A stretch of 64,000 bases of DNA, from the NCBI GenBank assembly GCA_039630545.1, contig JBCNUU010000006.1, positions 17,543 through 81,542 on the forward strand. Reading direction: 5' to 3'. The notes beneath the pieces are model-generated. The model searched no databases and was not told the DNA's origin. It worked only from the letters and a program-made list of their open reading frames with translations. This stretch comes from Endomicrobiia bacterium. Lineage in GTDB: Bacteria > Elusimicrobiota > Endomicrobiia > DTEH01. The translations under genes and the position numbers were made by a program. How positions within the stretch are numbered: the first letter of the stretch is position 1; every line of letters begins with the position of its first letter. This document shows positions 11,876 to 64,000 of this stretch, one piece after another.

Positions 11876-12311
11876 AGTATTGGATTAAAGGATTTAAAAA
11901 AATTTTTTCTAAAATTTCTTTTACATATTTTTCTTTTATTGCTGGTTCTAAAATAAGTTGGGTTCCAGAATGAACTTCAATTGATTTATTTATACCTAAA
12001 TATCTTACTGCGTTAGAAATTGTATTCGCCACTACATCCAGTACAGCCGGTTTATACCATATATTAATAATTGTTTTGTCGTTATTTTCTTTTTTTTGTT
12101 TCTTCTTTTTAACTTTATAATTTTCTAAAAAAGGGTCTACAAGTAAAGTTTCTACAATAAAAGTTATTTCTGAATCATTAACTCCTGAAAATGAATAAAT
12201 CTTATTTATATTCATTCTATGTATTTTTACAGGACTTATTGTGTTTATCTCGTTAATAAGGTCTTTATAGTCTTTATTTTTAGGGATAATCTCAACTATG
12301 TATTTTTCCAT
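11862..12311 (-). CDS. purS: PurS-like protein, apparently a tandem double PurS domain
   Basis: 149 aa, about twice the usual PurS length. Second half resembles PurS (IINIWYKPAVLDVVANTISNAVRYLGINKSIEVHSGTQLILE). Overlaps the purL start by 14 nt. Confidence 0.6.
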   Translation of the reverse strand: MEKYIVEIIPKNKDYKDLINEINTISPVKIHRMNINKIYSFSGVNDSEITFIVETLLVDPFLENYKVKKKKQKKENNDKTIINIWYKPAVLDVVANTISNAVRYLGINKSIEVHSGTQLILEPAIKEKYVKEILEKIFLNPLIQYYEIL

Positions 12312-12320
12312 ATTTTAAAA

Positions 12321-28922: not shown

Positions 28923-31900
28923 TTTGCTACAATTATTGTCCCAGTAAATGTTTTATTACCAACTTTTATTTTATAAATATAAACACCTTTTGGCACAAAG
29001 TTTCCGTTGGTATCTTTCCCATCCCAGGTAAGTTCTACACCTTCTAATTTTAACCTGGCAATATATCTTAAGTTTAAATCATAAACTTCACCTTCAGGTG
29101 TAAACAAAGTAGGATTGAAAATCACAAAATGAATTTTGTTGTCTTGTGACGCTGTTGGTGTAAAGATTTTTTTTGGATAAATATTTGTAATCACAGGTTC
29201 TTGAGTTGAAATGACTTTTCTTACTACATATTCTCCTGTAGACCTTAAAGTACATCTCAAAATACTTTTTTGTTCATCATAAAAACTTGGAACAAGCACA
29301 TATTCAATATCATTATTAAAAAATACTAAAGGTTTTACTTTAACTAAATTTTTTTCTTCCACGAAATTATCGGATGAATAATCTTCATTTTCTTTCTGAA
29401 GAAAAATTTCTAAGTTTATTGGCTGTTTAAACTTATAGGAGACAGGTTTATTATTTCTAACAAGTTCTAATTTATATTTCATAAATGTACTGAAATTAAT
29501 ACTTTCATTTTCTTCAACAGGTACTGTTGTAATGTTAAGTTTATAGCCATAAAATGAAATTTCTTCTTCTACACCTTTTGGAATAACGATCTTCATTGTA
29601 TCTAAAAAGGGAATAATTCTACTTCCCGAATTAAAGGAAGAAACTACATCTGACGGTAAACTTTCTATTCCAGTTTCTGTTACAACCTTTATTAAATAAT
29701 AATAAGTGTTAAAATAAATATAGTCGGTAAATGTCGTAGCCGGAGTTGAGACAAATTTATAAAAAGACGAAGGGTTTAAAACACCTTCATAGTCCTGACT
29801 GCGATAAATGTTATAGCCTTTAATGTCGTCAGCTAAAGAACCATCTGTATATGTTTGCACTTTTTCCCATGATAAAATAAATCTATAATCAGGATTATCA
29901 TAATTTATTTTTTCTATTCTTGAAGGAATATTTATTACTCCTATAAAGAAAGTATTTTTAGTAGGTTCACTAAAAATATCTTCCTCATCTATTGCTATCA
30001 CTTCATAATAATATGTCATATTCTGTGTTAAGTTTATTTGGGGCTGATATGAATTAGATGAAACTTCTACATCAATTACTGGAGAATAAAGATTTTTATT
30101 GGAAAAAATTTTGAGTCTATATTTTTTAATGCTAGTGTTGGGTTCCGGGTGTGGTAAAGGTTCCCATTCAAAAACAGGTCTTCTTAATAAAATTTCTCCT
30201 TCGGGATTTAAAATTTTTACACCTTGAGGTCTAAAATATGGCACATAAAAGCTTAAAACTGAAGAATCTCTCCACAGGCCTCTTTTATCATAAGCGCGTA
30301 TTTTCCAATAATAAGTTGAATTCATTAAGAGCTTAAAATTGATTGTGTAGACAGTAACTGAAGATGAAACCACAATGGATGTTGTAATGTTTAGCTGAAA
30401 ATTTTGTTTTGTTGAAAGTTTAATTTCATAATAGTTTATACCATCGTCTTTATCAAAACCTATCTCCCATATAAACTGAGGCTTTCTTGTAAAAACTGTA
30501 CTTGACGGGGAAAATATTCCAAATGGTTCTGGTGGATCGTTTTGGGAGTCAATGAATAAATAATTAGTTGTAGATATTTTTTGACTAACTTGATTTTTAG
30601 CAACTACATACCAGAAATATGTTGTGTTTTCTTTTAAGGTTGAAGTAGAATATGAAATAGGTTGTAGTTCTTTGTAGTTTTCATAAGGACCTAAAAAAAA
30701 TTCTACTTTATTGGGTGGTTTTCCTAGTTCACCTATGTATAACTCATACGTTATCTGTTTCCACCACTCTGTAATATTTGCGGGTGCCCAAATTAGATTT
30801 AAAGGTTGTGTTGCCCGAGTAAAAGTATAGGATGAACCTGGACTAAGTAGATAAATATCATCGGGAGGATCATCCTGTAGGTCTACTATAAACATGTAAG
30901 ATGAAATGCTTTTTGTATAGTTTGATTTTGTATCATAAGCTTCAACCCACCAGTAGTAGGCTGCATTTTCTTTTAATTTTGATAAATCTATATTATAACT
31001 TAAAGTTGTACTTCCTAAAATAACTATATATGTTGAATCACCTACTATATAGCTTTCTGCTGATGAAATTACTACTTTATATTGTTCTACATAATCCTTT
31101 GGATCAGAGTCATAACTTTGTTGCCAGCTTAAATTTATATATCTTTCTTTTATTACTCCAGAAGTGATATTGAGATAAAAACTTTTTGGATTTTCTTCAT
31201 AAAAATTTACCCAGAAAGAACCAATAGTAGAACTTGAAATCCCTCCATAGTTATCATAAGCCACCACCTGCCAGAAATATTGAGTGTTTTCTTTAAAATC
31301 AAAAAAGATTTCTGCCTCTATAGTTTCTCCTATTTGTTTTCCTATGTTTGTTCCGGCAGAAAATTTTTCATAAACAGAAAAATTTTGAAAACTTGAAATA
31401 TATAAAGTATAGTATAATATATCTCTATCCAAATCTCCATTGTTTTTAAACTTAAATTTAAAAGAAGATAAAACTATTTCATCATTTAAAGGATATACTA
31501 ATTCAAAATTGTTTGGATCAAAATTTGTAGTTTGAAAATAAAATGTAGAGTAGGGTGTCTCAAAATTTCCAAATTTATCATAAGCTTTTACATACCAGTA
31601 ATAAGTGGTCCTAGGATGCAGATCAAAATTTAAAATAAATTTTGTATCTGAAGAATAAAAAGTATAATAAGAAGAAAAATTAGCAAAACTGCTTATTATA
31701 ATTACATAACTTGAAACAAAAGAATCATAGTTGTCTGGATCGTATACTTGTTCCCAGTAAAATGTTGGTCTAAAAGTTTTAATTCCTGATGCAAAAGGAT
31801 GACTTATGCTTACTCCAGGAGACAAAAGATTAAACTTTAATGGCCTCTGGTTTGAAACTATAAATCTTCCGGTACTTAAAGCGACACCATATGGTTTTAC

Positions 31901-37389: not shown

Positions 37390-38466
37390 CTATAAACCAG
37401 ATTTCTGCAGTAATTTTTTAAGTTCTTCCGGATCAGAAGAAGCACTTATGGCTTCTTCCAGACTAATTAATCTTCTTTGATACAAATCTGCTAGTGCTTG
37501 ATTCATTGTTTGCATTCCAAATTTTGCACCAGTTTGAATTAAAGTAAATATTTGTTCTGGCTTTCCTTCACGAATTAAGTTCCTTACAGCAGGTGTAGCA
37601 ACTAACACCTCACAAGCTAAAACTCTACCTTTGCCCGAAATATGCAAAAGAAGCTGCTGTGCCAAAACTGCTTGTAGTACAAAAGAAAGCTGAACTCTTA
37701 CTTGCTGCTGTTGATGAGGTGGAAAAACATCCACTATTCTGTTGACAGTAGAAACAGCATCTGTAGTATGAAGAGTTGCAAAAACCAAATGCCCCGTCTC
37801 GGCTATAGTAAGTGCCGCAGAAATTGTTTCTAGATCGCGCATTTCTCCTATCAAAATAATATCAGGATCTTCTCTTAACACATACTTTAATGCTGTAGCG
37901 AAACTTTCTGTATCTGAACCAACTTCTCTTTGGTTTATTATACAGTTTTTATGATGAAACAGATATTCTATAGGATCTTCTATTGTAATAATATGGGCAT
38001 TTCTATGTTCATTAATAAAATTTATCATAGAAGCTAATGTTGTTGTTTTCCCGGACCCCGTGGGACCTGTTACCAAAATTAAACCCCTTGGAAGATCTAC
38101 AAGTTGAGAAACAATTTTTGGAAGTCTTAATTCTTCAAAAGTAGGAGGAGTCGAAGGAATAGCTCTCAAAGCTGCAGCAACTGCACCCTTTTGACGAAAA
38201 ACATTCATTCTTATTCTTCCTATATCTCTTACTCCAAAAGATACATCCAACTCATTAAGTGTTTCAAACCTTTCTTTCTGTTTATCTGTAAGAACAGAAT
38301 AAATTAGTTTTTGACACATTTCTGGGGTAAGTTTACCAAAAGAGGTAGGTACTAACTTACCATCAACTCTTAACATAGGAGGTAATCCAGCAGTAATATG
38401 TAAATCTGAAGCTTTTTGTTCATGCATTAAATACAACAAATTTTCCATACTTAAAGACATCTCCAT
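37390..38466 (-). CDS. pilT: Type IV pilus retraction ATPase PilT
   Basis: 358 aa; Walker A GPTGSGKTTT, Asp box, Walker B DIILIGEMRD, His box, PilT-type GMQT motif. Confidence 0.92.
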   Translation of the reverse strand: MEMSLSMENLLYLMHEQKASDLHITAGLPPMLRVDGKLVPTSFGKLTPEMCQKLIYSVLTDKQKERFETLNELDVSFGVRDIGRIRMNVFRQKGAVAAALRAIPSTPPTFEELRLPKIVSQLVDLPRGLILVTGPTGSGKTTTLASMINFINEHRNAHIITIEDPIEYLFHHKNCIINQREVGSDTESFATALKYVLREDPDIILIGEMRDLETISAALTIAETGHLVFATLHTTDAVSTVNRIVDVFPPHQQQQVRVQLSFVLQAVLAQQLLLHISGKGRVLACEVLVATPAVRNLIREGKPEQIFTLIQTGAKFGMQTMNQALADLYQRRLISLEEAISASSDPEELKKLLQKSGL

Positions 38467-38492
38467 ATATCAATCCTCCCTTTAAAAATAAT

Positions 38493-40208
38493 TTAAACAC
38501 CTGTTTCTTCACTAACAGTAACTCTTAAAACTTCCTCTATAGTTGTGATTCCAGCAAGCATTTTTCTTATTGCAGATTTTCTTAAAGTAGACATTCCATT
38601 TCTTATAGCTACTTTCTTTATTTCTATATCTGGTGTGTTTTTCAAAATCATTTCTCTTATTTCATCTGTTATCTCCATAATTTCATAAATACCTATCCTT
38701 CCTTTATATCCATTATTACATTTTTTACACCCAGCACCTTTATATAGCACTACTTTTTTTTGTCTTTGAACCATATCATCAGTAACTCCTAAAGGATACA
38801 ACTTCTCTACAGGAACCTCATATGGCTGTTTACATTCTGAACATATTTTCCTTACTAATCTTTGAGCTTCAACTAAAGTAAGTGTGGAAGAAATTAAAAA
38901 TGGATCTATCCCCATATTTACAAGACGCGTTACAGCAGAAGGTGCATCGTTTGTATGAAGAGTAGAAAATACTAACTGACCTGTTAAAGCTGCCTGAATT
39001 GCTATTCTTGCTGTCTCTGTATCACGAATTTCACCTACTAAAATTATATCAGGTGCTTGTCTTAAAAAAGCTCTTAAACCAGAAGCAAATGTTAATCCAA
39101 CTTCAGGATTCACATTTACCTGTGTTATTCCATCTAAAAGATATTCGACAGGATCCTCTATTGTTAATATATTGACTTCTGGACGATTTAAAGTTGAAAG
39201 AGCAGAATATAAAGTAGTTGATTTTCCAGAACCGGTAGGTCCTGTAATCAAAATTAAACCAAAAGGCAACCTAATTGTCCTTAAAAAAATCTCTAGCTGT
39301 TCTGGTTCAAAACCCAATTTTTCAAGATCCAAACACAAGGCAGAAGAATCGAGGATTCTTAAAACTGCTTTTTCTCCATATACCACAGGAAGTATTGAAA
39401 CGCGAAAATCTATCTCTCTTTCATCTATGCGCATTTTTATTCTACCATCTTGAGGTTTTCTTGTTTCTGTAACATCTAGCTTTGACATAATTTTTATTCT
39501 TGCTATCAAGGCATTATAAACATGATGAGGAAAAAATGCTTCCTCTTTTGCTACTCCATCAATCCTGTAGCGCAAACGACATTTCTTTTCAAAGGGTTCA
39601 AGGTGTATATCAGAAGCTCTTTTGCGAACTGCTGTAATAATAATATTATTTGCAAGCTTAACTATAGGTTCTTCTTCCGCAAGTTCCCTTACTTCAACTG
39701 TTTCTGGTATTGGCTCGACTTCTATTGAAGTTTCTAATTTCTCAAGTTCATTTATTTCTTTCTCTATGTGTGTTGTTTCTTCTTTTAAAAGATACTTTCT
39801 TATATTCTCCTTAATATCTTTGAGAGTGGCAACTACCGGCTTAACATTAAGTCCTGTAGAAAGTTTAATGTCATCTATTATAAACAAATTATAAGGATCA
39901 GGAAGAGCCACCGTTAAAGTATTCGTTTTTTTATCAAAACTTATAGGGAAAACATTATGTTTTTCTATAAACGTCCTAGGCAGTAAATTAATTACAGATT
40001 CGTCTATTTCAAGTTCTGAAATATAAACAAAATCCAAATTTTGTTGTCTTGCTAAAAAAGACAAAAGAACATCTTCAGTGATATATCCTAAATTTATCAA
40101 AGTCTGCCCTAATTTTTCACCAGTTTGTTTTTGTAAAGTCAAAGCTTCTTCAAGTTGCTTTTGTGTTATAATATTTGCTGAAATTAAAATTTCACCTAAT
40201 TTTTGCAT
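38493..40208 (-). CDS. pilB: PilB/GspE-family assembly ATPase (paralog 1)
   Basis: 571 aa; N-terminal GSPII_E_N-like domain, Walker A GPTGSGKSTT, tetracysteine motif CSECKQ...CKKC. Confidence 0.9.
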   Translation of the reverse strand: MQKLGEILISANIITQKQLEEALTLQKQTGEKLGQTLINLGYITEDVLLSFLARQQNLDFVYISELEIDESVINLLPRTFIEKHNVFPISFDKKTNTLTVALPDPYNLFIIDDIKLSTGLNVKPVVATLKDIKENIRKYLLKEETTHIEKEINELEKLETSIEVEPIPETVEVRELAEEEPIVKLANNIIITAVRKRASDIHLEPFEKKCRLRYRIDGVAKEEAFFPHHVYNALIARIKIMSKLDVTETRKPQDGRIKMRIDEREIDFRVSILPVVYGEKAVLRILDSSALCLDLEKLGFEPEQLEIFLRTIRLPFGLILITGPTGSGKSTTLYSALSTLNRPEVNILTIEDPVEYLLDGITQVNVNPEVGLTFASGLRAFLRQAPDIILVGEIRDTETARIAIQAALTGQLVFSTLHTNDAPSAVTRLVNMGIDPFLISSTLTLVEAQRLVRKICSECKQPYEVPVEKLYPLGVTDDMVQRQKKVVLYKGAGCKKCNNGYKGRIGIYEIMEITDEIREMILKNTPDIEIKKVAIRNGMSTLRKSAIRKMLAGITTIEEVLRVTVSEETGV

Positions 40209-40225
40209 ATAAGTTTAAATAAAAG

Positions 40226-41956
40226 TTACTCTTCTTCAGCAAATGTATTTTTAATTACTTCTTCAACAGTAGTGATACCCGCTAATAATTTTTTTAAAGC
40301 CGCCTCTCTTAATGTTATCATTCCGTTTTTTCTTGCTTGTTGTTTTATCTCAAAATGAGAAGCTTTTTTAAGGATTAAATCCTTTATTGACTCATTGCAA
40401 TCAATCACTTCAAATATTCCTGTTCTTCCTTTATATCCACCTTGACATTTACTACATCCTGTTCCTTTGTAAATAACTATTTCCTTCATATTCTTTACCA
40501 TTTCAGATGTAACACCTAATGGTTGAAGTTGTTGAAGTGAAACCCTATATTGTCTACGACACTCTTTACATATTTTTCTTAAAAGCTTTTGAGACATCAC
40601 AAGTGTTAAAGTTGAAGCTATTAAAAACGGCTCCACACCCATATTTATCAGCCTTGTTACTGCAGAAGCAGCATCATTTGTATGTAGAGTAGCAAAAACT
40701 AAATGTCCAGTTAAAGCTGCGTTAATACCTATTTCAATTGTTTCTTTATCTCTTATTTCTCCTATCATTATTACATCTGGATCTTGCCTTAAAAACGCAC
40801 GCAAAGCAGCAGCAAAAGTAAGTCCAACTTTTTCATTGACATTTACTTGATTTATACCATACATAACCGCTTCAACAGGATCTTCAACTGTCATAATGTT
40901 TACATCTTCAGTGTTTAAAACATTAAGTGCTGAATATAATGTTGTAGTCTTTCCTGAACCAGTAGGACCTGTAACAAGAATCATTCCATAAGGTTGTTTT
41001 ATAGCTTTTTCAAAAAGCCTAAGTTGTTCTTCCTCAAAACCTAATTCTGTTAAAGGTAAAGTAAGTGCCTGTGCGTCTATTATTCTTATACAAACTTTTT
41101 CTCCATGCGCTGCAGGTATAACTGATAAACGAAGATTTATTGGTTTGCCATTATAAGACATCCTGACTCTTCCATCTTGTGGTTTTCTTCTTTCAGTAAT
41201 GTCCATCTTACCCATTATTTTTATTCTTGCCACTACAGAAGGAAGCAATTTTTTAGGTAGAGGTTTTTGATCATGAAAAACACCGTCAATTCTGTACCTT
41301 ATTCTTACTTGTTTTTCCTGGGGTTCAATAAGAATATCAGAAGCATTTAAATTCAATGCTTGTTCTATTATAAAATTTACAGCTTTTACAACTGGAGCAG
41401 CATCTGCTTTAATATCTAATTCAGTGATATCCTGTTCTTCTACTATTTCAGCAGTGCCTGTTTCTATTTCTGTTTCTGCTTTCTTTTCTATTTCTTCTAT
41501 AGACTCTTTTTTCTCATAGTATTTGTTTATCGCTTCCAAAATCTCTTTTTTTCTTGCTACAACAATTTTTATGTTATAAGGAGTAGCCAACTTAAGACTA
41601 TCAAGGGCTATTATATCTAAAGGATCTGACATAGCTACAGTGAGAGTTTTTGTATTTTTGTCAAACTCAACAGGAATAAACTGAAAAGTTTTTACTAATT
41701 TTTCTGAAACTAACTTAAGAGTATCGGTAGGTATTTCATCAATTTCTGAAAGTGAAATGTAAGGAATATTAAACTGTTTAGCTAAAACAGCAAAAAGGAT
41801 TTCTTCGTTAACAAGTCCTTCTTCTATTAACAACTCACCAAGTTTTTTGCCTGTTTTTTTTTGAGTTTCTAACACACTTTGTAGTTGTTCCTGGGTAATT
41901 AGTCCTAATGCTACAAGAAGTTCTCCTAGTTTCTTATGAGGAGTTATTATTTCCAT
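40226..41956 (-). CDS. pilB: PilB/GspE-family assembly ATPase (paralog 2)
   Basis: 576 aa; same architecture, Walker A GPTGSGKTTT, tetracysteine CKECRR...CSKC; clearly paralogous to the downstream copy. Confidence 0.9.
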   Translation of the reverse strand: MEIITPHKKLGELLVALGLITQEQLQSVLETQKKTGKKLGELLIEEGLVNEEILFAVLAKQFNIPYISLSEIDEIPTDTLKLVSEKLVKTFQFIPVEFDKNTKTLTVAMSDPLDIIALDSLKLATPYNIKIVVARKKEILEAINKYYEKKESIEEIEKKAETEIETGTAEIVEEQDITELDIKADAAPVVKAVNFIIEQALNLNASDILIEPQEKQVRIRYRIDGVFHDQKPLPKKLLPSVVARIKIMGKMDITERRKPQDGRVRMSYNGKPINLRLSVIPAAHGEKVCIRIIDAQALTLPLTELGFEEEQLRLFEKAIKQPYGMILVTGPTGSGKTTTLYSALNVLNTEDVNIMTVEDPVEAVMYGINQVNVNEKVGLTFAAALRAFLRQDPDVIMIGEIRDKETIEIGINAALTGHLVFATLHTNDAASAVTRLINMGVEPFLIASTLTLVMSQKLLRKICKECRRQYRVSLQQLQPLGVTSEMVKNMKEIVIYKGTGCSKCQGGYKGRTGIFEVIDCNESIKDLILKKASHFEIKQQARKNGMITLREAALKKLLAGITTVEEVIKNTFAEEE

Positions 41957-56988: not shown

Positions 56989-57804
56989 ATGAACAGAAAA
57001 TCACAATTTGCAGGTAGCTGGTATCCTTCCAGCCTAAAAGAAGCAAAAAGTTATCTGTCTCCTGTAGCAAAAGATAAAAAAATAGATGTATTTGGATGTA
57101 TATGCCCCCATGCAGGCTGGCTTTATTCTGGAAAAGTTGCAGGAGAAGTTTACTCTATTATAACCCCAGCTGATGTATATATTCTGCTTGGGCCAAATCA
57201 TACAGGATTAGGAGAAAACATTGCAGTTTATCCAGAAGGAAAATGGGAATTTCCTTTTGGAGAAGTAGAAATAGAAAAAAATCTTGTAGATTTGATAGTA
57301 AAAAATTCTGAATTTGCAAAAAAGGATACAAAGGCTCACCAAAGAGAACATTCTTTAGAAGTTCATATTCCATTTCTTCAACTTATTACAGACAGAGAAT
57401 TTAAAATAGTACCTATAACTATAAAAGTAGAAGATTATGAAATGTGCAAGGACCTAGGGAATAGTATATTTTTTTCAATAAAAGAATATCTAAAAACAAA
57501 CAAAGACAAAAAAATAATAATAATTGCCTCAACCGATATGACCCATTATGAATCACAAAGTTATGCTTATAAACTTGATACACTTGCCATTGAAGAAATT
57601 TTAAAACTTTCACCAAAAGGTCTTTATGACATTGTGCTCTCTTACGGAATAAGTATGTGTGGAGTTTATCCTACGGTTTCTGCATTAATAGCATTAAAAC
57701 TTCTTGGCGCAAAAAAGGCAGAGGTAATAAAATATCAAACAAGTGGAGATGTTACAGGAGAATATGACTCTGTAGTGGGATATGCTGGAATAATAATTTA
57801 CTAA
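56989..57804 (+). CDS. MEMO1-family protein (AmmeMemoRadiSam system protein B type)
   Basis: 271 aa; FAGSWYP, CPHAGWLYSG, GPNHTG, HSLEVHIPFL, MTHYE motifs. Confidence 0.85.
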   Translation: MNRKSQFAGSWYPSSLKEAKSYLSPVAKDKKIDVFGCICPHAGWLYSGKVAGEVYSIITPADVYILLGPNHTGLGENIAVYPEGKWEFPFGEVEIEKNLVDLIVKNSEFAKKDTKAHQREHSLEVHIPFLQLITDREFKIVPITIKVEDYEMCKDLGNSIFFSIKEYLKTNKDKKIIIIASTDMTHYESQSYAYKLDTLAIEEILKLSPKGLYDIVLSYGISMCGVYPTVSALIALKLLGAKKAEVIKYQTSGDVTGEYDSVVGYAGIIIY

Positions 57805-57808
57805 AAAT

Positions 57809-59011
57809 ATGATAAAGCGAGTTGTTCTTGTTGTACTGGACGGTTTAGGAGTTGGTTATTTAAATGACGCAAAAGAATACAATGATGAAGGTACAAATAC
57901 CTTAACTCATATCTACCAACAAATTCCAAATTTTTCTCTCCCAAACCTGGCTAAGTTAGGTTTGTATAATCTTATTGAAAATTGCAAGTTTAAATATAAA
58001 AACTGCATTGGAAGTTATACCAAAATGGCTGAGTTATCAAAAGGCAAAGATACTATTACAGGACACTGGGAAATCACAGGTATAGTTGTAGAAACACCCT
58101 TTCCTACATATCCTAAAGGGTTTCCAGAAGAGATAATTAAAGAATTTGAAAAAAGAATAGGCACAAAAACACTTGGCAACATTCCAGCTTCAGGAACAGA
58201 AATTTTAAAACTTTTAGGTGAAAAACATCTTAAAACTGGATATCCTATAATATATACTTCTGCTGACAGTGTCTTTCAAATAGCAGCTCATGAAAAGGTT
58301 ATACCTGTAGAAAAACTTTATTACTACTGTCAAATAGCAAGAGAGATGTTAGGAAATCCTCCTTTTGAAAAACACAAAGTAGCAAGAGTAATAGCAAGAC
58401 CTTTTACAGGCACAAATAAAAAAAATTTCACAAGAACATCGAAAAGAAAAGACTTTAGTCTTAAACCTCCCACTAAAACTATACTTGACTACATACAAGA
58501 ATCTAAAGGAAAAGTTGTAGCTTTAGGGAAAATAGAGGATATATTTGCAAATCAGGGAATCAGTGTTTCTTTTCATACAACCAATAATACTGAAACCTTA
58601 AAAGAAATTTTGAGTGTTTTAAAAAACTTCAAACAAAACAAAACTCTAATCTTTGCTAATCTTGTTGACTTTGATACACTGTGGGGACACAGAAGAGATG
58701 TTTCAGGATACTATGAAGCTCTTAAATTTTTTGACAATAAATTAGTAGATATTATTAATTACCTAGATGAAAACGATTTGTTAATAATCACATCGGATCA
58801 CGGAAATGATCCCACCTACAAAGTTCACACAGATCACACAAGAGAATTCGTTCCTTTGATTTTATTCTCTAAAAGTAAGAAGTTTAAAACAAATATTAAG
58901 CTTAAAATAAGAAAAACATTCGCTGACATAGCAAAAAGTATAGAAGAAATCTTCCAACTAAAAACAAAACTTCAAACCGGAGAGAGTTTTATTAAAGAAA
59001 TTTTTGCCTGA
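57809..59011 (+). CDS. deoB: Phosphopentomutase
   Basis: 400 aa; N-terminal VVLVVLDGLGVG, metal-site TSDHGNDPT motif. Confidence 0.92.
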   Translation: MIKRVVLVVLDGLGVGYLNDAKEYNDEGTNTLTHIYQQIPNFSLPNLAKLGLYNLIENCKFKYKNCIGSYTKMAELSKGKDTITGHWEITGIVVETPFPTYPKGFPEEIIKEFEKRIGTKTLGNIPASGTEILKLLGEKHLKTGYPIIYTSADSVFQIAAHEKVIPVEKLYYYCQIAREMLGNPPFEKHKVARVIARPFTGTNKKNFTRTSKRKDFSLKPPTKTILDYIQESKGKVVALGKIEDIFANQGISVSFHTTNNTETLKEILSVLKNFKQNKTLIFANLVDFDTLWGHRRDVSGYYEALKFFDNKLVDIINYLDENDLLIITSDHGNDPTYKVHTDHTREFVPLILFSKSKKFKTNIKLKIRKTFADIAKSIEEIFQLKTKLQTGESFIKEIFA

Positions 59012-59856
59012 TGAAAGAAGAGTTGATTAAAAAAATAACAGAAGCCATAAATTTTATAAAAAAAGAGACCATAAACATTTCTCCTCAATATGGCATAATT
59101 TTAGGTTCTGGTTTAGGAAATATTGCAGAAACTGTAGAAGAAAAAATAGTAATTCCTTATCATGAAGTCCCAAATATGCCGGTTTCTAATATTAAAGGGC
59201 ACAAAGGAAATTTTGTTTTTGGTTATCTCGAACAAAAACCTGTAGTAGTAATGAATGGAAGAATACATTACTATGAAGGATATTCTATGCAAGAAGTTAC
59301 TTTCCCTATAAGAATTATGCATAAACTTGGCGTTAAATACTTAATAATCACAGCTGCTGTTGGAGCTATCAGGAAAAGATTATTGTTAAAACCATCTGAT
59401 ATTGTTATAGTGAAAGACCACATAAACTTAATCGGAGATAATCCATTAAGAGGAATTATTTTTGAAGAATTTGGAGAAGTTTTTGTAGATTTATCAAATG
59501 TTTACGATAAAGAATTAATAAAATTAACAAAAACTATAGCTAAAGAAAAAAACTTAAAAATATATGAAGGCATATACCTTGCTACCTGTGGACCTTCTTA
59601 CGAAACACCAGCTGAAATAAAAGCCTTTAAAAAATTAGGAGCAGATGTGGTAGGAATGTCGTTAGTTCCAGAAGCAGTAGTAGCAAAACAGGCAAATATG
59701 AAAATTTTAGGAATTTGCTATGTAACAAACTTAGCAAGTGGATTTTCCTCAAAACCACTTTCACATGTTGAAGTGTTAGAAATTGCTACTAAAGTAGCAT
59801 ATAAGCTAAATATGTTGATAAAAGAACTTATTAAAAGATTACCTGATTATCAATGA
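59011..59856 (+). CDS. punA: Purine nucleoside phosphorylase (PunA-like)
   Basis: 281 aa; GIILGSGLG phosphate loop and PNP-family core. Confidence 0.88.
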   Translation: MKEELIKKITEAINFIKKETINISPQYGIILGSGLGNIAETVEEKIVIPYHEVPNMPVSNIKGHKGNFVFGYLEQKPVVVMNGRIHYYEGYSMQEVTFPIRIMHKLGVKYLIITAAVGAIRKRLLLKPSDIVIVKDHINLIGDNPLRGIIFEEFGEVFVDLSNVYDKELIKLTKTIAKEKNLKIYEGIYLATCGPSYETPAEIKAFKKLGADVVGMSLVPEAVVAKQANMKILGICYVTNLASGFSSKPLSHVEVLEIATKVAYKLNMLIKELIKRLPDYQ

Positions 59857-61160
59857 GAGCATATGATATAATTCTTAAAAAAAGAGATGGATATTCACTT
59901 ACTAAACAAGAAATAGATTTTATGATCCAAAATTATACCACTAACAAAATTCCTGATTATCAAATGGCTGCTTTTTTGATGAGTATATATTTTAGAAGCA
60001 TGTCAAAGAAAGAAATAATTTGGCTGACTGAATCAATGATTAAAAGTGGTGATGTTTTAGATCTAAAAGATATAGATAAACCAAAGGCAGACAAACACTC
60101 AACTGGAGGTGTAGGTGATGGAATTTCATTGTCTTTAGCTCCACTTTTAGCTTCATTTGATATAGCAGTACCTATGATGTCAGGCAGAGCCTTAGGCCAT
60201 ACCGGAGGAACTTTAGATAAACTTGAATCTATTGATGGTTTCAATATCTACTTAACTCAAACACAAATCAAAAAACAGCTAAAAAAAATTGGATTAGCTA
60301 TTTTTGCTGCAAATAAAAATATTGTCCCAGCAGATAAAAAAATATATGCTTTAAGAGATGTAACTGCTACGGTAGAAAGTATTCCATTGATATCTGCTTC
60401 AATCATGAGTAAAAAAATTGCAGAATCAATAGATGCCTTGTTACTTGATGTAAAAACAGGAAATGGAGCATTCATTGAAAAATTTTCACTTTGTCTGCAA
60501 CTTGCTAAAACTATGGTAGAAATAGGTAAAAATTTTGGTATAAAAACTTTAGCTTTAATTACTGATATGAATCAACCTTTAGGAGAATATGTTGGCAACT
60601 CTTTAGAAATTTATCAAACTATAAAGATTTTAAAAAATGAAGGACCTGAAGATATAACAGAGCTTGTACTTATAGAAACTGCAAAACTGCTACAGCTTTT
60701 AGGTATAGAAAAAAATTTTGAAAAAGCAAAACAAAAAGCTAAAGATAATTTATCTAAAGGATATGCTTTAGAAAAGTTTAAAGAACTTATTATAGCACAA
60801 AATGGAAATTATAAGATTTTAGACAAACCTCAGATTCTCTTAAATGCTAAATATCAAACACCGATAATGTCAAAGAAGTCCGGTTATATTACAAACATTA
60901 ATACAAAACTTTTAGGATTGACTTTAGCAAAATTAGGAGCTGGTAGACAAAAATTAACCGATAAAATTGATCATTTAGTTGGCATAAAAGTTTTAAAAAA
61001 GTTAAACCAGTATGTGGAAAAATCTGAACCGTTGATTTATGTGTTTTATAATGATAAAAATAAATTTGAAGAGTTACAATCTTTCTTTTTATCTTGTTTT
61101 TCAATCACAGAAAAATTAAATTTTAAAACTCCTCCTTTAGTTTATAAAGAAATAAAATAA
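59853..61160 (+). CDS. pdp: Pyrimidine-nucleoside (thymidine) phosphorylase
   Basis: 435 aa; N-terminal ILKKRDG...L, glycosyltransferase family 3 signature DKHSTGGVGD. Confidence 0.92.
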   Translation: MRAYDIILKKRDGYSLTKQEIDFMIQNYTTNKIPDYQMAAFLMSIYFRSMSKKEIIWLTESMIKSGDVLDLKDIDKPKADKHSTGGVGDGISLSLAPLLASFDIAVPMMSGRALGHTGGTLDKLESIDGFNIYLTQTQIKKQLKKIGLAIFAANKNIVPADKKIYALRDVTATVESIPLISASIMSKKIAESIDALLLDVKTGNGAFIEKFSLCLQLAKTMVEIGKNFGIKTLALITDMNQPLGEYVGNSLEIYQTIKILKNEGPEDITELVLIETAKLLQLLGIEKNFEKAKQKAKDNLSKGYALEKFKELIIAQNGNYKILDKPQILLNAKYQTPIMSKKSGYITNINTKLLGLTLAKLGAGRQKLTDKIDHLVGIKVLKKLNQYVEKSEPLIYVFYNDKNKFEELQSFFLSCFSITEKLNFKTPPLVYKEIK

Positions 61161-61163
61161 CCA

Positions 61164-63392
61164 ATGAGAATGCCGTATAAATGGATATTAAAAGAAAACA
61201 ACAATATAGATATTGAACTTCTTTCAGAAAAACTTAATCTTCCTAAAATTTTAATAAAGATTCTTGTGAATAGAGGATACGACTCAGAAGAAAAAATCAA
61301 AAAGTTTTTGTTTAATGAGCTTTTTTATTTAAAAAACCCTTTTTTGTTTAAAGATATGCAAAAAGCAGTTGAAACTACAAAAAAACACATAGAAGAAAAA
61401 AATAAAATCCTTATCTGGGGAGATAGAGATGTGGACGGAGTTACGGCTTTAAGCGTGCTTCTTTTTACTTTGGAAAAACTAGATGCTAATGTTATGTGGT
61501 ATATTCCTCAAACAGAGGGTTATGGTTTAAATATTAACACTTTAGAAAAATTTATAAATGAAATAAAACTTTTAATTACAGTAGATTGTGGCATTTCTTC
61601 TTTTGAAGAAATAAAGTATTTGATAGACAAAGGGATAGATGTAATTGTAACTGACCATCATACTCCAAACTTAGAAATAGTTCAAAACATTAAATCTTTA
61701 AATGTTCCTGTGATAAATCCACACTTAGAAGAGTTTGATTTTAAAGATCTTGCTGGAGTAGGGGTTGCTTTAAAATTTTGTTGTGGGCTTTTAATGTCAT
61801 ATGATGAAGAATATTACAACAAAGAATTTATAGTAATAGATTTGGAAACAACGGGTATTTCTGCAGTGGTGGATGAAATATGTGAAATAGCAGCTGTGAA
61901 GGTAAAAAACTTTGTACCTTATGAAATATACACTACATTAATTAAACCTACAAAAGCAATACCGGAAAGTGTATCTAAAATCCACGGAATAACCTCCAAA
62001 CTTGTAGAAAACGCTCCAACAATTCAAAAAGTTATTCCTGAACTTTTAAATTTTATTAAAAACAAACCATTGGTTATACACAACTCTGATTTTGATTTGT
62101 CTTTCTTAAATAAATCTTTACAAAATTTAGATTATCCTCCTCTATCTAACAAAGTAATTGACACATTAAAAATCTCACAGGAGTATTTACCAATAAAGTC
62201 GCATTCGCTTAAACATCTCACTGAACACTTTTTGTTTAATGCTAAACCTAACCACAGAGCATTAAATGATGCCCTAGCTACATGCGAGTTATTCTATTTT
62301 CTATATAACATAAAAAACCACAAATTAAAGTTTTATATAAAAGAAATGTTACCTTTAGTATGTTTAGGTACAATCTCAGATATAGTATCTTTGACTGATG
62401 AAAATAGAATATTTGTTAAAAAGGGAATAGAAGAAATGTATAACTCTGAACTTCCCTTTGCAAGAAGAATTAAAAAATACTTATTAGAAGAAAAAAAACT
62501 TTCTAAACTAGACTCTGAAACTTTTTCTTGGCAAATTATTCCCATTTTAAATTCAGCGGGAAGATTAAAAAAAGTAGAAATTGCTTTAAATTTATTAACT
62601 GCAAAAACTTATAAAGAAGCTAATCATTATTTTGAACAACTTTTAGAAATAGACAAACAAAGAAAAAATCTTCAAGAAATTAATTTTTCAGTCTTTTATG
62701 AGTTAGTGGAACAGCAATGTGACTTAGAAAAAGATTTGATTCTTTTGGTGGTAGCAGAAAATATAGAACATGGAGTCACAGGTATTGTGGCTAATTATAT
62801 GTTAAGAGAATTTAATCGTTGCGTTATACTTCTTATTGTGGAAAATGACACAGCAATTGGAGCTGCTCGCTCACCTGATTATGTTGATATATACCAACTT
62901 CTCAAGAAATGCGATTATCTTTTTGAAAAATTTGGAGGACACAAAAATGCTTGTGGGATTACTATAAAAAAAGAAAAAATTCCTCTGTTTAAAGATGAGC
63001 TTAAAAAATTAGAAAAAGAAATTTCGTTAAAAACTCCAGAAATAGAAATTGATACAGAAATAACACCAGAAGAGATAACTTTGGAACTTTATCAAAAACT
63101 TAACCTGTTAGAACCATTTGGTCCACAAAATAACTATCCTGTATTTCTTTTAAGAAATTTAAAAGTAATTGATTGGAAATATTTTGGAAAAACTAATAAA
63201 TATACTCAAATAGTTTTTGAAACACCAGCCTCCACAATTTTAAATGCTGTATGCTGGGATATACCTGAGTTGGGAGATATTTTAAGAAATTTCTCTTATT
63301 TTAATGTAGTCGGTGAATTAGAGTTAGACCCCCAAAGCAAAAATTCATTAAGATTGACATTGTTAGACATACAACCAGTAATTCATATTTAA
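61164..63392 (+). CDS. recJ: RecJ-like DHH/DHHA1 exonuclease with an inserted DnaQ-type (DEDDh) 3-prime to 5-prime exonuclease domain
   Basis: 742 aa; DHH motifs (GDRDVDGVTA, ITVDCGIS, VIVTDHHTP), inserted Exo I FIVIDLETTG, Exo II VIHNSDFDLSFL, Exo III HRALNDALATCELF, then RecJ core (LVCLGTISDIV) and DHHA1 (FGGHKNACG). Confidence 0.85.
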   Translation: MRMPYKWILKENNNIDIELLSEKLNLPKILIKILVNRGYDSEEKIKKFLFNELFYLKNPFLFKDMQKAVETTKKHIEEKNKILIWGDRDVDGVTALSVLLFTLEKLDANVMWYIPQTEGYGLNINTLEKFINEIKLLITVDCGISSFEEIKYLIDKGIDVIVTDHHTPNLEIVQNIKSLNVPVINPHLEEFDFKDLAGVGVALKFCCGLLMSYDEEYYNKEFIVIDLETTGISAVVDEICEIAAVKVKNFVPYEIYTTLIKPTKAIPESVSKIHGITSKLVENAPTIQKVIPELLNFIKNKPLVIHNSDFDLSFLNKSLQNLDYPPLSNKVIDTLKISQEYLPIKSHSLKHLTEHFLFNAKPNHRALNDALATCELFYFLYNIKNHKLKFYIKEMLPLVCLGTISDIVSLTDENRIFVKKGIEEMYNSELPFARRIKKYLLEEKKLSKLDSETFSWQIIPILNSAGRLKKVEIALNLLTAKTYKEANHYFEQLLEIDKQRKNLQEINFSVFYELVEQQCDLEKDLILLVVAENIEHGVTGIVANYMLREFNRCVILLIVENDTAIGAARSPDYVDIYQLLKKCDYLFEKFGGHKNACGITIKKEKIPLFKDELKKLEKEISLKTPEIEIDTEITPEEITLELYQKLNLLEPFGPQNNYPVFLLRNLKVIDWKYFGKTNKYTQIVFETPASTILNAVCWDIPELGDILRNFSYFNVVGELELDPQSKNSLRLTLLDIQPVIHI

Positions 63393-63408: not shown

Positions 63409-64000
63409 ATGAAAAAACAAAAATCAAAATTACCAACCAATATAAAAATTGGAATTATAGGTGGTAGTGGAGTATATAACATAGAAGATCTTAAAAATAT
63501 AAAGGAATACAATATTGTAACTCCTTTTGGAAAACCATCTGATAAAATAATTGTAGGCGAACTGGAAGGAAAACATGTGGCGTTTCTACCACGACACGGG
63601 AAAGGTCATTTTATTTCACCCACAGAATTAAACTCTCAAGCAAATATTTACGCTTTTAAACTTTTAGGTGTTGAGTTTTTATTTAGTATATCAGCCTGTG
63701 GTTCATTAAAAGAAGAAATAAAACCCAGAGATTTCGTAATACCTGACCAGATCTACGATAGAACCAAACATAGAAACCCAACTTTTTTCAGAGATGGTTT
63801 TGTGGCTCATGTGGCGTTTGCCCAACCATACTGTGAAAATTTAAGAAAGTTAGTTTTTGAATGTTGTAGAGAATTAAATCTGACCACTCATTTTGGTGGA
63901 ACTTATGTTTGTATAGAAGGACCACAGTTTTCAACCAAGGCAGAATCAAAAGTATATAGACATCTTGGTTTTGACATAATAGGAATGACAGCCTTACCAG
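63409..64000 (+). CDS. mtnP: S-methyl-5-prime-thioadenosine phosphorylase, 3-prime end runs off the window
   Basis: Manual translation MKKQKSKLPTNIKIGIIGGSGVY...VAFLPRHGKGH...GMTALP; PNP/MTAP family. No stop within the window. Confidence 0.85.
   Translation, partial: MKKQKSKLPTNIKIGIIGGSGVYNIEDLKNIKEYNIVTPFGKPSDKIIVGELEGKHVAFLPRHGKGHFISPTELNSQANIYAFKLLGVEFLFSISACGSLKEEIKPRDFVIPDQIYDRTKHRNPTFFRDGFVAHVAFAQPYCENLRKLVFECCRELNLTTHFGGTYVCIEGPQFSTKAESKVYRHLGFDIIGMTALP

What the first reader, a model, noticed from the sequence alone, without database searches (positions are those of the whole stretch)
61164..63392. RecJ-like nuclease with a complete DnaQ-type exonuclease inserted between DHH and DHHA1
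Seen in sequence: DHH motifs I-III are followed by about 170 aa (roughly nt 61800-62320) carrying all three DEDDh motifs (DLETTG, HNSDFDLSFL, HRALNDALATCELF), after which the RecJ core (LVCLGTISDIV) and DHHA1 (GGHKNACG) resume in the same frame. Established: RecJ degrades ssDNA 5-prime to 3-prime, DnaQ-type domains 3-prime to 5-prime. Inference: a single polypeptide could attack ssDNA from both ends. It is the fifth gene of a tightly packed memo-deoB-punA-pdp-recJ-mtnP operon, suggesting DNA scavenging feeding nucleoside salvage rather than repair alone. I do not recall this as a described RecJ architecture, but could not search.
Basis: partly seen in the sequence, partly recalled or inferred. 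Interest (0 to 1): 0.65.

Follow-up and report, generated by a model that had tools for sequence, protein, structure and literature searches.

The report
RecJ nuclease with nested DnaQ-type exonuclease
A DNA-end-degrading enzyme (RecJ) of uncultured Endomicrobiia carries a complete second exonuclease of opposite polarity spliced into the middle of its catalytic domain and sits in a conserved nucleoside-breakdown operon; the feature is real and I found no description of it, but it is a modest variation on known enzymes.

Summary
ORF 61164-63392 (+, 742 aa) is a RecJ: it passes the TIGR00644 cut-off and has DHH, DHHA1 and RecJ_OB domains. It contains a full-length PF00929 DEDDh exonuclease at residues ~215-385.

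One correction: the exonuclease is nested inside the DHH domain, between motifs III and IV. It replaces a ~5-residue loop; it does not lie between DHH and DHHA1.

It is not a chimera. Eighty of the best 120 protein clusters, from independent assemblies of Elusimicrobiota and Brevinematia, share the architecture down to 30% identity. Both catalytic sets are conserved, and insert and core diverge equally. The AlphaFold model is confident (pLDDT 93).

The form is rare: about 38 of ~25,800 RecJ-like clusters at 50% identity. Sources annotate it only as "RecJ". Five targeted literature searches found no description.

New findings:
- Related Endomicrobia RecJs carry dead or ~100-aa remnant inserts at the same site.
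- The whole subfamily has a remodelled 5'-nucleotide pocket.
- The gene order deoB-punA-pdp-recJ-mtnP(-cdd) is conserved across Elusimicrobiota whether or not the exonuclease is intact, but is absent in Brevinematia.

Most likely it is a dual-polarity ssDNA exonuclease. A catabolic role is plausible but unproven.

The parts
61164..63392 (+). recJ-exo gene (742 aa). The alternative start ATG at 61170 gives the 740-aa NCBI product P0001.
   Evidence: TIGR00644 447.1 bits against a 396.9 cut-off
61341..61805 (+). DHH catalytic domain, N-terminal part: motif I D87/D89/D91, motif II D141, motif III D164-H165-H166, followed by helix 198-211.
   Evidence: Pfam DHH 81-218. All seven residues are present in 67/67 homologues. 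Mapped to DrRecJ D79/D81/D83, D135 and D158-H160.
61806..62318 (+). Nested DnaQ/PolC-type DEDDh 3'-5' exonuclease domain (residues ~215-385): Exo I D226/E228, Exo II D311, Exo III H364/D369.
   Evidence: PF00929 223-377, full profile, E 1.3e-32. Boundaries. Catalytic residues kept in 64-66 of 67 homologues. Fold matches Pol III epsilon 2gui (TMt 0.85, rmsd 2.0) and the DnaQ domain 8h18 (TMt 0.84). By sequence, the PolC exonuclease 2p1j matches at E 6e-30.
62319..62717 (+). DHH domain, C-terminal part: helix 386-405 leading into motif IV (GTISD, D406), motif V R467, and the long linker helix 483-518.
   Evidence: D406 and R467 are invariant. They map to DrRecJ D223 and R280.
62742..63011 (+). 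DHHA1 domain with motif VI R569 and motif VII G591-G592-H593.
   Evidence: Pfam DHHA1 527-616. R569, G591, G592 and H593 are invariant.
63048..63329 (+). RecJ OB-fold domain. The protein ends here and has no SSB-binding C-terminal domain of the DrRecJ type.
   Evidence: Pfam RecJ_OB 629-722, E 5e-18. DrRecJ domain limits.
56989..57804 (+). Memo / AmmeMemoRadiSam-B family gene, first gene of the tightly packed run. It is not part of the conserved cluster in more distant relatives.
   Evidence: Present in L001 only.
57809..59011 (+). deoB, phosphopentomutase.
   Evidence: NF003766 516 bits against a 256 cut-off; TIGR01696 445 against 341
59011..59856 (+). punA, purine-nucleoside phosphorylase.
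   Evidence: NF006054 345 bits against 218; TIGR01700 304 against 293
59853..61160 (+). pdp, pyrimidine-nucleoside (thymidine) phosphorylase. Its stop codon lies 3 nt before the recJ-exo start.
   Evidence: TIGR02644 540 bits against 409; junction sequence
63409..64000 (+). MTAP-like (mtnP) nucleoside phosphorylase, cut by the window end. It lies 16 nt after recJ-exo and is preceded by AGGAGG.
   Evidence: NF005657 262 bits for a partial protein

Best explanation
The gene encodes the RecJ orthologue of an Endomicrobiia bacterium. A complete, catalytically competent DnaQ/PolC-type DEDDh exonuclease domain is nested in a surface loop of the DHH catalytic domain, between motifs III and IV. The polypeptide therefore has two independent two-metal-ion nuclease sites. 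One is the RecJ site at the DHH/DHHA1 interface, fed through the helical gateway and OB fold, with expected polarity 5'->3' on ssDNA. The other is the DEDDh site, with expected polarity 3'->5'. The most likely working model is that it degrades single-stranded DNA or oligonucleotides from both ends to 5'-dNMPs, combining in one protein what E. coli divides between RecJ and ExoI/ExoX. Shown here: the architecture, its recurrence, conservation of both catalytic sets, a confident two-lobed fold, and co-evolution of insert and core. Inferred: both activities, their polarities and any cooperation between them. In Elusimicrobiota the gene is embedded in a conserved, tightly packed nucleoside-catabolism cluster (deoB, punA, pdp, mtnP-like, cdd, often transketolase and phosphate transporters). 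Its products therefore probably also feed nucleotide and nucleoside turnover. That link belongs to the RecJ subfamily as a whole, not specifically to the exonuclease insert.
For: Architecture. Insertion point. Recurrence: 80 of the best 120 clusters have DHH + RNase_T + DHHA1 + RecJ_OB, down to 30% identity, from NCBI, JGI, ENA and Logan assemblies named Endomicrobiia, Elusimicrobiota or Brevinematia. About 38 clusters at 50% identity carry an intact nested exonuclease. RecJ ligands D87, D89, D91, D141, D164, H165, H166, D406, G591, G592 and H593 are present in 67/67 homologues. DEDDh residues are kept as follows: D226 66/67, E228 65/67, D311 64/67, H364 65/67, D369 65/67. Insert and core have equal mean pairwise identity (0.42 vs 0.41) and their distances correlate at r = 0.86. 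AlphaFold2: pLDDT 93.2, pTM 0.91. The core superposes on S. aureus, D. radiodurans and T. thermophilus RecJ (TMt 0.65-0.71) and the insert on Pol III epsilon (TMt 0.85, rmsd 2.0 A). The closest exonuclease relatives all act on DNA 3' ends: PolC exonuclease, DinG exonuclease, epsilon. Synteny with deoB/punA/pdp/mtnP holds in the window, L001, L003, L006, L009 and L010. Genes overlap or lie 3-16 nt apart, with no intergenic terminator.
Against: There is no biochemical evidence. The RecJ 5'-nucleotide pocket differs from characterised RecJs. DrRecJ Tyr80 (which stacks on the +1 base) is Arg88 here. DrRecJ Arg109 (a 5'-phosphate ligand whose mutation impairs activity) is deleted. Ser371 is Ala567. 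Polarity or substrate choice of the core could therefore differ. I could not read model coordinates, so the geometry between the two sites is unknown. The exonuclease has been inactivated or reduced to a ~100-aa remnant in several sister lineages that keep RecJ and the same operon. The second activity is therefore dispensable in some settings. In Brevinematia the intact fusion lies next to holB and near addB, with no salvage genes.
Confidence: 0.6

Rival explanations
1. It is primarily a catabolic nuclease. In this reading the RecJ subfamily was recruited in Elusimicrobiota as the nucleic-acid-degrading entry step of a nucleoside and pentose catabolism operon. The path would be imported ssDNA or oligonucleotides -> dNMP -> nucleoside -> base + (deoxy)ribose-1-P -> pentose phosphate pathway. 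The second polarity would speed complete digestion.
For: The order deoB-punA-pdp-recJ-mtnP(-cdd) is conserved at 36-59% RecJ identity. It is often flanked by split transketolase genes, PHO4/PhoU or a Na/Pi cotransporter, and DeoC. The genes are translationally coupled in spacing. PilB/PilT-type ATPases lie in the same window. [quoted passage not shown]
Against: No 5'-nucleotidase is encoded in the cluster. The synteny is independent of exonuclease integrity (L007 and L008 have remnant inserts). It is absent in Brevinematia. The protein passes the RecJ equivalog threshold, and nothing shows there is a separate repair RecJ in the genome. The organism has de novo purine synthesis genes (purLQS), so salvage is not obligatory. 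Conserved gene order within one phylum can be inherited rather than functional.
Confidence: 0.3
2. The insert is a structural or regulatory lobe rather than a working nuclease, for example a DNA-end or protein-binding module.
For: Sister lineages keep dead inserts (P0071: the full domain at E 2e-13, with DxE lost) or miniaturised inserts (P0091: a confidently folded beta-beta-beta-alpha-beta-alpha unit) at the same site. This suggests the lobe may have a role that does not depend on catalysis.
Against: In the window protein and 64-66 of 67 full-length homologues all five DEDDh residues are intact, together with the surrounding motifs (T229, G231, H306, N307, F310). The insert evolves as slowly as the catalytic core.
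Confidence: 0.1
3. It degrades RNA or nanoRNA. The DHH/DHHA1 core would act like NrnA and the DEDDh domain like Orn or RNase T, finishing RNA turnover to NMPs for the adjacent ribonucleoside phosphorylases.
For: Both superfamilies include nanoRNases (PMC9757072 and PMC9779919, listed). The cluster enzymes (PNP, PyNP, cytidine deaminase, deoB, transketolase) handle ribonucleosides as readily as deoxyribonucleosides. The nucleotide pocket, which discriminates DNA from RNA in DrRecJ, is remodelled.
Against: The protein has the full RecJ architecture, with OB fold and linker helix, and passes the TIGR00644 threshold. The best exonuclease matches are DNA exonucleases (PolC, DinG, epsilon), not Orn or RNase T.
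Confidence: 0.1
4. The nested domain serves as the replicative proofreader (an epsilon surrogate) tethered to RecJ.
For: Sequence and fold are close to epsilon and the PolC exonuclease. In Brevinematia the gene abuts holB.
Against: It scores far below the dnaQ equivalog cut-offs (TIGR01406 101 bits against 222.7). Being nested, it has no free C-terminal tail. The domain has decayed repeatedly without loss of the host gene.
Confidence: 0.03
5. It is an assembly chimera or a frameshift fusion of two genes.
For: None beyond the unusual architecture. GC skew flips over the insert.
Against: There is a single frame with no stops. The same nested order is seen in about 80 clusters from many independent assemblies and sequencing centres. 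The RecJ domain is split by the insert, not juxtaposed to it. The single-chain model is confident.
Confidence: 0.01

Closest known systems
Bacterial RecJ (D. radiodurans 5F54-5F56, T. thermophilus 2ZXO, S. aureus 8Y30; TIGR00644)
   Same: It shares DHH motifs I-IV, the linker helix, DHHA1 with GGH and the OB fold. The fold matches at TMt 0.65-0.71 and it passes the equivalog threshold.
   Different: A ~171-residue DEDDh domain replaces a ~5-residue loop between motifs III and IV. There is no SSB-binding C-terminal domain. The 5'-nucleotide pocket is remodelled: Tyr80 -> Arg, Arg109 deleted.
PolC-type DNA polymerase III (DEDDh proofreading exonuclease inserted into the PHP domain)
   Same: The same type of exonuclease domain (best NCBIfam and PDB sequence matches) is nested inside another metal-dependent phosphoesterase domain rather than attached at a terminus (PMC3919608; PolC loci L013 and L048). 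Some PolC also lack the exonuclease insertion, which parallels the losses seen here.
   Different: The host domain is DHH, not PHP. The host is itself an exonuclease of opposite polarity, not a polymerase.
Terminal DEDD fusions: DinG-exonuclease (S. aureus, B. subtilis), Cas2-DEDDh, DEDD-GIY-YIG, UvrD-exonuclease
   Same: A DnaQ-like 3'-5' exonuclease is recruited to a DNA-processing partner (PMC12345164 and PMC12525004; PDB 8zef and 8fy9; L014, L075 and L083; PADLOC DEDDh).
   Different: Those are end-to-end fusions. This one is a nested insertion into a catalytic domain, and the partner is a nuclease.
Exonuclease VII, and the RecJ + ExoI/ExoX set of E. coli
   Same: They are functional analogues: ssDNA degradation from both 5' and 3' ends. 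This is from my own knowledge and was not tested here.
   Different: ExoVII is an unrelated XseA/XseB complex with a single active site. This protein has two distinct active sites of known families in one chain.
CDC45 / archaeal GAN (DHH family with large insertions)
   Same: It shows that the DHH scaffold tolerates large insertions (PMC4846377).
   Different: [quoted passage not shown] Here the insert lies within the DHH domain and both parts keep their catalytic residues.

Membership tests
Bacterial RecJ (DHH subfamily 1, TIGR00644) | Equivalog HMM score above the curated cut-off | tested here: met
   447.1 bits against 396.9, one stretch 28-725
Bacterial RecJ (DHH subfamily 1, TIGR00644) | Metal-binding motifs I-IV (DxDxD, D, DHH, D) and motif VII GGH | tested here: met
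   D87/D89/D91, D141, D164-H166, D406 and G591-H593 are present, and conserved in 67/67 homologues. They map to DrRecJ D79/81/83, D135, D158-H160, D223 and H397.
Bacterial RecJ (DHH subfamily 1, TIGR00644) | DHH + long linker helix + DHHA1 core, plus an OB-fold domain | tested here: met
   Pfam DHH, DHHA1 and RecJ_OB. The model has helix 483-518. TMt is 0.65-0.71 to 8y30, 5f56 and 2zxo.
Bacterial RecJ (DHH subfamily 1, TIGR00644) | Terminal 5'-phosphate pocket (DrRecJ Arg109, Arg280, Ser371, Arg373), which sets 5'-3' polarity | tested here: inconclusive
   The equivalents of Arg280 (R467) and Arg373 (R569) are invariant. Arg109 is deleted ('IPQ--TEGYG'), Ser371 is Ala567, and Tyr80 is Arg88, which may compensate.
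Bacterial RecJ (DHH subfamily 1, TIGR00644) | Processive 5'->3' ssDNA-specific exonuclease activity | not testable with these tools
   Needs enzyme assays
DEDDh (DnaQ-like, PF00929) 3'-5' exonucleases | Exo I DxE, Exo II (H)NxxFD, Exo III Hx4D | tested here: met
   D226-L-E228; H306-N-S-D-F-D311; H364-RALN-D369. PF00929 covers the full profile at E 1.3e-32.
DEDDh (DnaQ-like, PF00929) 3'-5' exonucleases | RNase H-like alpha/beta fold | tested here: met
   The insert matches 2gui (TMt 0.85, rmsd 2.0), 2ido (0.87) and 8h18 (0.84).
DEDDh (DnaQ-like, PF00929) 3'-5' exonucleases | 3'->5' exonuclease activity | not testable with these tools
   Needs enzyme assays
DNA polymerase III epsilon subunit (DnaQ proper) / PolC | Equivalog HMM scores above cut-off (whole-protein orthology) | tested here: not met
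   TIGR01406 scores 101 bits against 222.7. NF001688 (PolC) scores 146 against 873. Only the exonuclease domain matches.
Anti-phage defence systems (PADLOC) | Match to a defence protein model together with defence-type neighbours | tested here: not met
   There are only domain-level DEDDh hits. The neighbours are metabolic genes.

The most novel reading that the evidence does not exclude
A distinct RecJ subfamily has a remodelled 5'-phosphate pocket and an ancestral nested 3'-5' exonuclease. In Elusimicrobiota it would be a dedicated catabolic nuclease, co-transcribed with phosphopentomutase, three nucleoside phosphorylases, cytidine deaminase and phosphate transporters. Imported or turned-over ssDNA or oligonucleotides would be eaten from both ends and channelled into pentose and energy metabolism. 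That would make it an operon-encoded 'DNA as food' pathway in which RecJ is a metabolic enzyme rather than a repair enzyme. The repeated decay of the exonuclease lobe would then track lifestyle changes, for example host-associated Endomicrobium.
Probability: 0.25. Interest if true: 0.7.

Novelty: new variant of a known kind. Interest (0 to 1): 0.5.

Why it matters
If both sites are active, this is a single-chain, two-active-site exonuclease that attacks ssDNA from both ends, built by nesting one nuclease domain inside the catalytic domain of another. That would be a second natural example, after PolC, of a DEDDh domain nested in a metal-dependent phosphoesterase domain, and a compact enzyme of possible practical use.

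The family also offers a natural decay series: intact, catalytically dead, ~100-aa remnant, and ~17-aa vestige. This is useful for studying how inserted domains are gained and lost.

The phylum-wide embedding of recJ in a nucleoside-catabolism operon suggests a metabolic role for RecJ that has not been explored in these uncultured lineages.

None of this overturns current understanding. The parts are well-known families and the inferred chemistry is conventional.

Tried and rejected
1. Assembly chimera: rejected on cross-assembly recurrence.
Hits that seemed to extend beyond the exonuclease turned out to be PolC, DEDD-GIY-YIG or UvrD-exonuclease proteins.
3. Monophyly of insert-bearing RecJs: a core-only NJ tree gave 0/100 support for a clean split from canonical RecJs, because the deep nodes are star-like. 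Only local groupings are supported. I rely instead on shared rare changes.
4. Sequence homology of the ~100-aa remnants to the exonuclease: HMM search was not significant. hhalign gave only 82% probability over 34 columns. The Foldseek top 50 for the remnant model contained DHH-family hits only. Remnant status is therefore likely but not proven.
6. P0001 is not in the contig index, so I could not see the operon beyond the window end.
7. Promoter and terminator scans were below or near shuffle expectation.
8. The Palchevskiy & Finkel 2009 paper is not held.
9. Defence-system and phage readings: only domain-level matches.
10. A survey of the rest of the window found no comEC/comEA, no 5'-nucleotidase and no second ssDNA exonuclease. 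It did find TatD, CinA, recA and PilB/PilT-type ATPases.
Full report
OBSERVATION

The window has one uninterrupted ORF at 61164..63392 on the + strand, 742 aa.

Pfam finds four domains:
- DHH, residues 81-218
- RNase_T (PF00929), residues 223-377, covering the whole profile (1-164 of 164; E 1.3e-32; 114 bits against a cut-off of 24)
- DHHA1, residues 527-616
- RecJ_OB, residues 629-722

NCBIfam's RecJ equivalog TIGR00644 is passed at 447.1 bits against 396.9, in a single stretch that bridges the insert. The exonuclease part scores best against the PolC exonuclease region, PRK06807-type 3'-5' exonucleases and the DinG exonuclease. It falls far below the whole-protein cut-offs of dnaQ and PolC.

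WHERE THE INSERT SITS

That is imprecise.

- Against S. aureus RecJ (8y30), query residues 3-213 align to 4-213 and query residues 397-728 to 219-548. About 183 residues therefore replace a five-residue loop.
- Against D. radiodurans RecJ, the break maps to about residues 196-210. In that enzyme the DHH domain spans 49-295, the linker helix 296-327 and DHHA1 328-424. The metal ligand of motif IV is Asp223 (PMC4846377).
- The exonuclease is therefore nested inside the DHH catalytic domain, between motif III (D164-H165-H166) and motif IV (D406).
- Alignment with insert-less relatives puts the boundaries at residues ~215-385, nt 61806-62318.

IS IT REAL?

Eighty of the best 120 clusters at 90% identity carry PF01368 + PF00929 + PF02272 + PF17768, at 30-100% identity to the query. 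They come from NCBI, JGI, ENA and Logan assemblies.

Where a source gives a name, it is an Endomicrobiia, Endomicrobia, Elusimicrobiota or Elusimicrobia MAG, or a Brevinematia, Brevinemataceae, Brevinematales or "Spirochaetes GWF1_51_8" MAG. The product is simply called "single-stranded-DNA-specific exonuclease RecJ". Fragments are called "exonuclease domain-containing protein". The 100%-identity hit, P0001, is from an Endomicrobiia MAG.

A chimera is therefore excluded.

A profile search of 1.84 billion representatives at 50% identity found 25,831 hits at E <= 1e-30. Only about 38 of the listed representatives carry an intact nested exonuclease. The architecture is a small coherent group, not a common RecJ form.

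ARE BOTH HALVES FUNCTIONAL?

In an alignment of 67 full-length homologues (A1):
- The RecJ ligands D87, D89, D91, D141, D164, H165, H166 and D406, and G591-G592-H593, are invariant.
- The DEDDh residues are kept in 64-66 of 67: D226 66, E228 65, D311 64, H364 65, D369 65.

Mean pairwise identity is the same for insert and core (0.42 against 0.41), and the two sets of distances correlate at r = 0.86. The insert has therefore co-evolved with its host under comparable constraint.

AlphaFold2 on this alignment gives pLDDT 93.2 and pTM 0.91. Foldseek places the core on bacterial RecJ structures: 8y30, 5f56 and 2zxo at TMt 0.65-0.71. It places the insert on Pol III epsilon (2gui, TMt 0.85, rmsd 2.0 A) and on a DnaQ domain (8h18, TMt 0.84).

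I could not read the model's coordinates, so the relative placement of the two active sites is unknown.

A DISTINCT RecJ SUBFAMILY

Two residues of the 5'-nucleotide pocket described for DrRecJ differ. Residue roles are from PMC4846377.
- Tyr80, which stacks on the +1 base, is Arg or Lys ("GDRDVDG"; R88 in the query).
- Arg109, a ligand of the terminal 5'-phosphate whose mutation impairs activity, is deleted ("IPQ--TEGYG" instead of "IPxRxxEGYG").

The equivalents of Arg280 (R467), Arg373 (R569) and His397 (H593) are invariant.

This signature is present in nearly all intact, dead and remnant forms examined. It is absent from 18 of the 24 closest canonical-length RecJs. The six canonical-length proteins that share it are the ones that interleave with insert-bearing proteins in a core-only tree.

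I read Y80R plus loss of R109 as a possible charge swap. That is inference. It also means that the polarity and substrate preference of the core are not guaranteed by homology alone.

DECAY SERIES

Other Endomicrobia RecJs of 656-716 aa, with no PF00929 hit, carry shorter inserts at exactly the same site.

- P0071 still matches an HMM of the insert over its full length (E 2e-13) but has lost DxE. P0084 and P0118 match weakly.
- P0041 has an internal deletion and has lost the His.
- The 656-684 aa group has a ~100-residue insert with no significant HMM match. A profile-profile comparison, however, recovers the junction motif and strands beta1-beta3 (82% probability, E 1e-5, 34 columns).
- A confident model of P0091 (pLDDT 89.4) folds the insert as beta-beta-beta-alpha-beta-alpha-alpha-beta...alpha. 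The elements come in the same order as in the intact domain. Foldseek's top 50 for this model showed only DHH-family hits, so fold-level confirmation is lacking.
- P0150 (585 aa) keeps only "DYNKEIAIMDHE", that is, the junction motif plus strand beta1, before motif IV.

In the core tree:
- The intact P0050 groups with the dead forms in 82/100 replicates.
- The intact P0029 groups with the partly deleted P0041 in 100/100.
- The remnant group is a clade in 96/100.
- Deep nodes are unresolved, and a clean insert-versus-canonical split has 0/100 support.

The simplest reading is one old insertion in this RecJ subfamily, followed by repeated inactivation and deletion. Monophyly is not demonstrated.

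GENOMIC CONTEXT

Then comes recJ-exo, then an MTAP-like phosphorylase cut by the window end. Gaps or overlaps are 1-16 nt. No intergenic terminator-like site was found.

The linkage is conserved in Elusimicrobiota-type loci:
- L001 (59% RecJ identity): Memo-deoB-punA-pdp-recJexo.
- L003 (40%): deoB-PHO4-PhoU-punA-[NTase pair]-recJexo-pdp-mtnP.
- L006 (36%): transketolase N/C, then deoB-punA-pdp-recJexo-mtnP-cdd.
- L009 and L010: punA and pdp flank the gene.

The same order also holds for remnant-insert RecJs. L007 and L008 have transketolase-deoB-punA-pdp-recJ-mtnP-cdd-Na/Pi cotransporter.

It does not hold in three Brevinematia/Spirochaetota loci with the intact fusion (L004/L005, L011, L012). 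There the neighbours include an OTCase, holB and addB.

The synteny is therefore a property of Elusimicrobiota RecJ, not of the exonuclease insert.

RecJ and DEDDh enzymes both release 5'-mononucleotides, which need a nucleotidase before a phosphorylase can act on them. None is encoded in the cluster.

The rest of the window is housekeeping: recA, purLQS, dxs, obg, thiC, an Opp-type transporter, TatD, CinA, and three PilB/PilT-type ATPases.

MECHANISM

My best explanation, at confidence 0.6, is a dual-polarity ssDNA exonuclease. The RecJ core threads a 5' end through the helical gateway to the DHH/DHHA1 site. The nested DEDDh lobe digests 3' ends. Both release dNMPs. One protein thus covers what E. 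coli divides between RecJ and ExoI/ExoX; that comparison is from my own knowledge.

In Elusimicrobiota its co-location with nucleoside catabolism suggests that the products also feed nucleotide turnover.

Rivals:
- A primarily catabolic "DNA as food" nuclease (0.3).
- A non-catalytic lobe (0.1). This does not fit the window protein but does fit its decayed relatives.
- An RNA or nanoRNA degrader (0.1).
- An epsilon surrogate (0.03).
- A chimera (0.01).

COMPARISON AND NOVELTY

The protein meets every sequence and fold criterion I could test for bacterial RecJ, except the complete 5'-phosphate pocket. It meets every testable criterion for a DEDDh exonuclease. It is neither a DnaQ nor a PolC orthologue.

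The closest architectural precedent is PolC. There the same kind of exonuclease is "inserted into the PHP domain", and some lineages lack the insertion (PMC3919608).

Other DEDD recruitments are end-to-end fusions: DinG-exonuclease, Cas2-DEDDh, DEDD-GIY-YIG and UvrD-exonuclease.

Five literature searches on RecJ, DnaQ/DEDD fusions and Elusimicrobia found no description of this architecture. The library lacks most subscription journals, and domain-architecture databases surely list it.

I rate it a new variant of a known kind, interest 0.5. It is real, coherent and experimentally tractable, with an instructive decay series and an intriguing operon. It is assembled from familiar parts with conventional inferred chemistry.

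Noticed in passing
P0071, P0084, P0118, P0041; P0069-P0120 group; loci L007:8001-10055 and L008:8001-9977: Related Endomicrobia RecJs carry catalytically dead, partly deleted or ~100-aa remnant inserts at exactly the same site between motifs III and IV. This forms a decay series of the nested exonuclease. The remnant in P0091 still folds confidently as a small beta-beta-beta-alpha-beta-alpha unit.
   Followed up: yes
window 61422-61436 (G86-D-R88-D-V-D91) and 61503-61526 (I113-P-Q-T-E-G-Y-G121): The RecJ core of the whole insert-bearing subfamily has DrRecJ Tyr80 replaced by Arg/Lys and the 5'-phosphate ligand Arg109 deleted. This may be a charge swap in the pocket that sets 5'-3' polarity. 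Six insert-less RecJs (P0150, P0156, P0157, P0158, P0178, P0210) share the signature.
   Followed up: partly
P0150 (585 aa): An apparently insert-less RecJ keeps 'DYNKEIAIMDHE' (the junction motif plus exonuclease strand beta1) immediately before motif IV. This is a vestige of an almost completely deleted insert.
   Followed up: partly
L003:7278-8004: A nucleotidyltransferase / NTase-substrate-binding pair (toxin-antitoxin-like; PF08780 + PF01909) is inserted between punA and recJ-exo in an otherwise conserved cluster.
   Followed up: no
L001:6695-7990: In this relative (GCA_017880035.1) the pdp gene upstream of recJ-exo is called as a 246-aa fragment plus small ORFs, and tblastn finds it in two pieces. 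It is probably a frameshift or pseudogene.
   Followed up: no
L006, L007, L008 (about 2600-4500 and 10000-13700): The conserved Elusimicrobiota cluster extends beyond the window's genes. Split transketolase N/C genes lie upstream. Cytidine deaminase and a Na/Pi cotransporter lie downstream (PHO4 + PhoU in L003). DeoC lies at the edge of L008. Together these look like a nucleoside-to-pentose-phosphate catabolic module.
   Followed up: partly
P0121 (1848 aa): The top-scoring representative in the profile search is three tandem canonical RecJ copies in one ORF. The first and third copies have degenerate motifs (for example DHH -> LNH / NRH). It has no exonuclease insert.
   Followed up: no
window 61900-62350: GC skew of the coding strand flips to about -0.32 exactly over the exonuclease insert, while flanking RecJ sequence is at +0.1 to +0.3 and GC content is unchanged. 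This could reflect amino-acid composition or a residual foreign signature.
   Followed up: no
window 37390-41956 (-): Three consecutive T2SSE-family ATPases, one PilT-like and two PilB/MshE-like with MshEN domains. This indicates a type IV pilus or type II secretion apparatus. It is compatible with DNA uptake but is not evidence for it.
   Followed up: no
window 28919-34669 (-): A 1916-aa ORF with only Ig-like (Rha78A_N) and fn3 matches, presumably a large surface protein. The adjacent 448-aa ORF (27576-28922) has no Pfam match.
   Followed up: no
window 61164 vs 61170: The start codon is ambiguous. The ORF's first ATG gives MRMPYKW (742 aa), whereas the NCBI product P0001 starts at the second ATG (740 aa). 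The pdp stop codon is 3 nt upstream of the first ATG.
   Followed up: partly
window 59960-60244 (-): A 94-aa antisense ORF lies inside pdp. It is most likely spurious.
   Followed up: no
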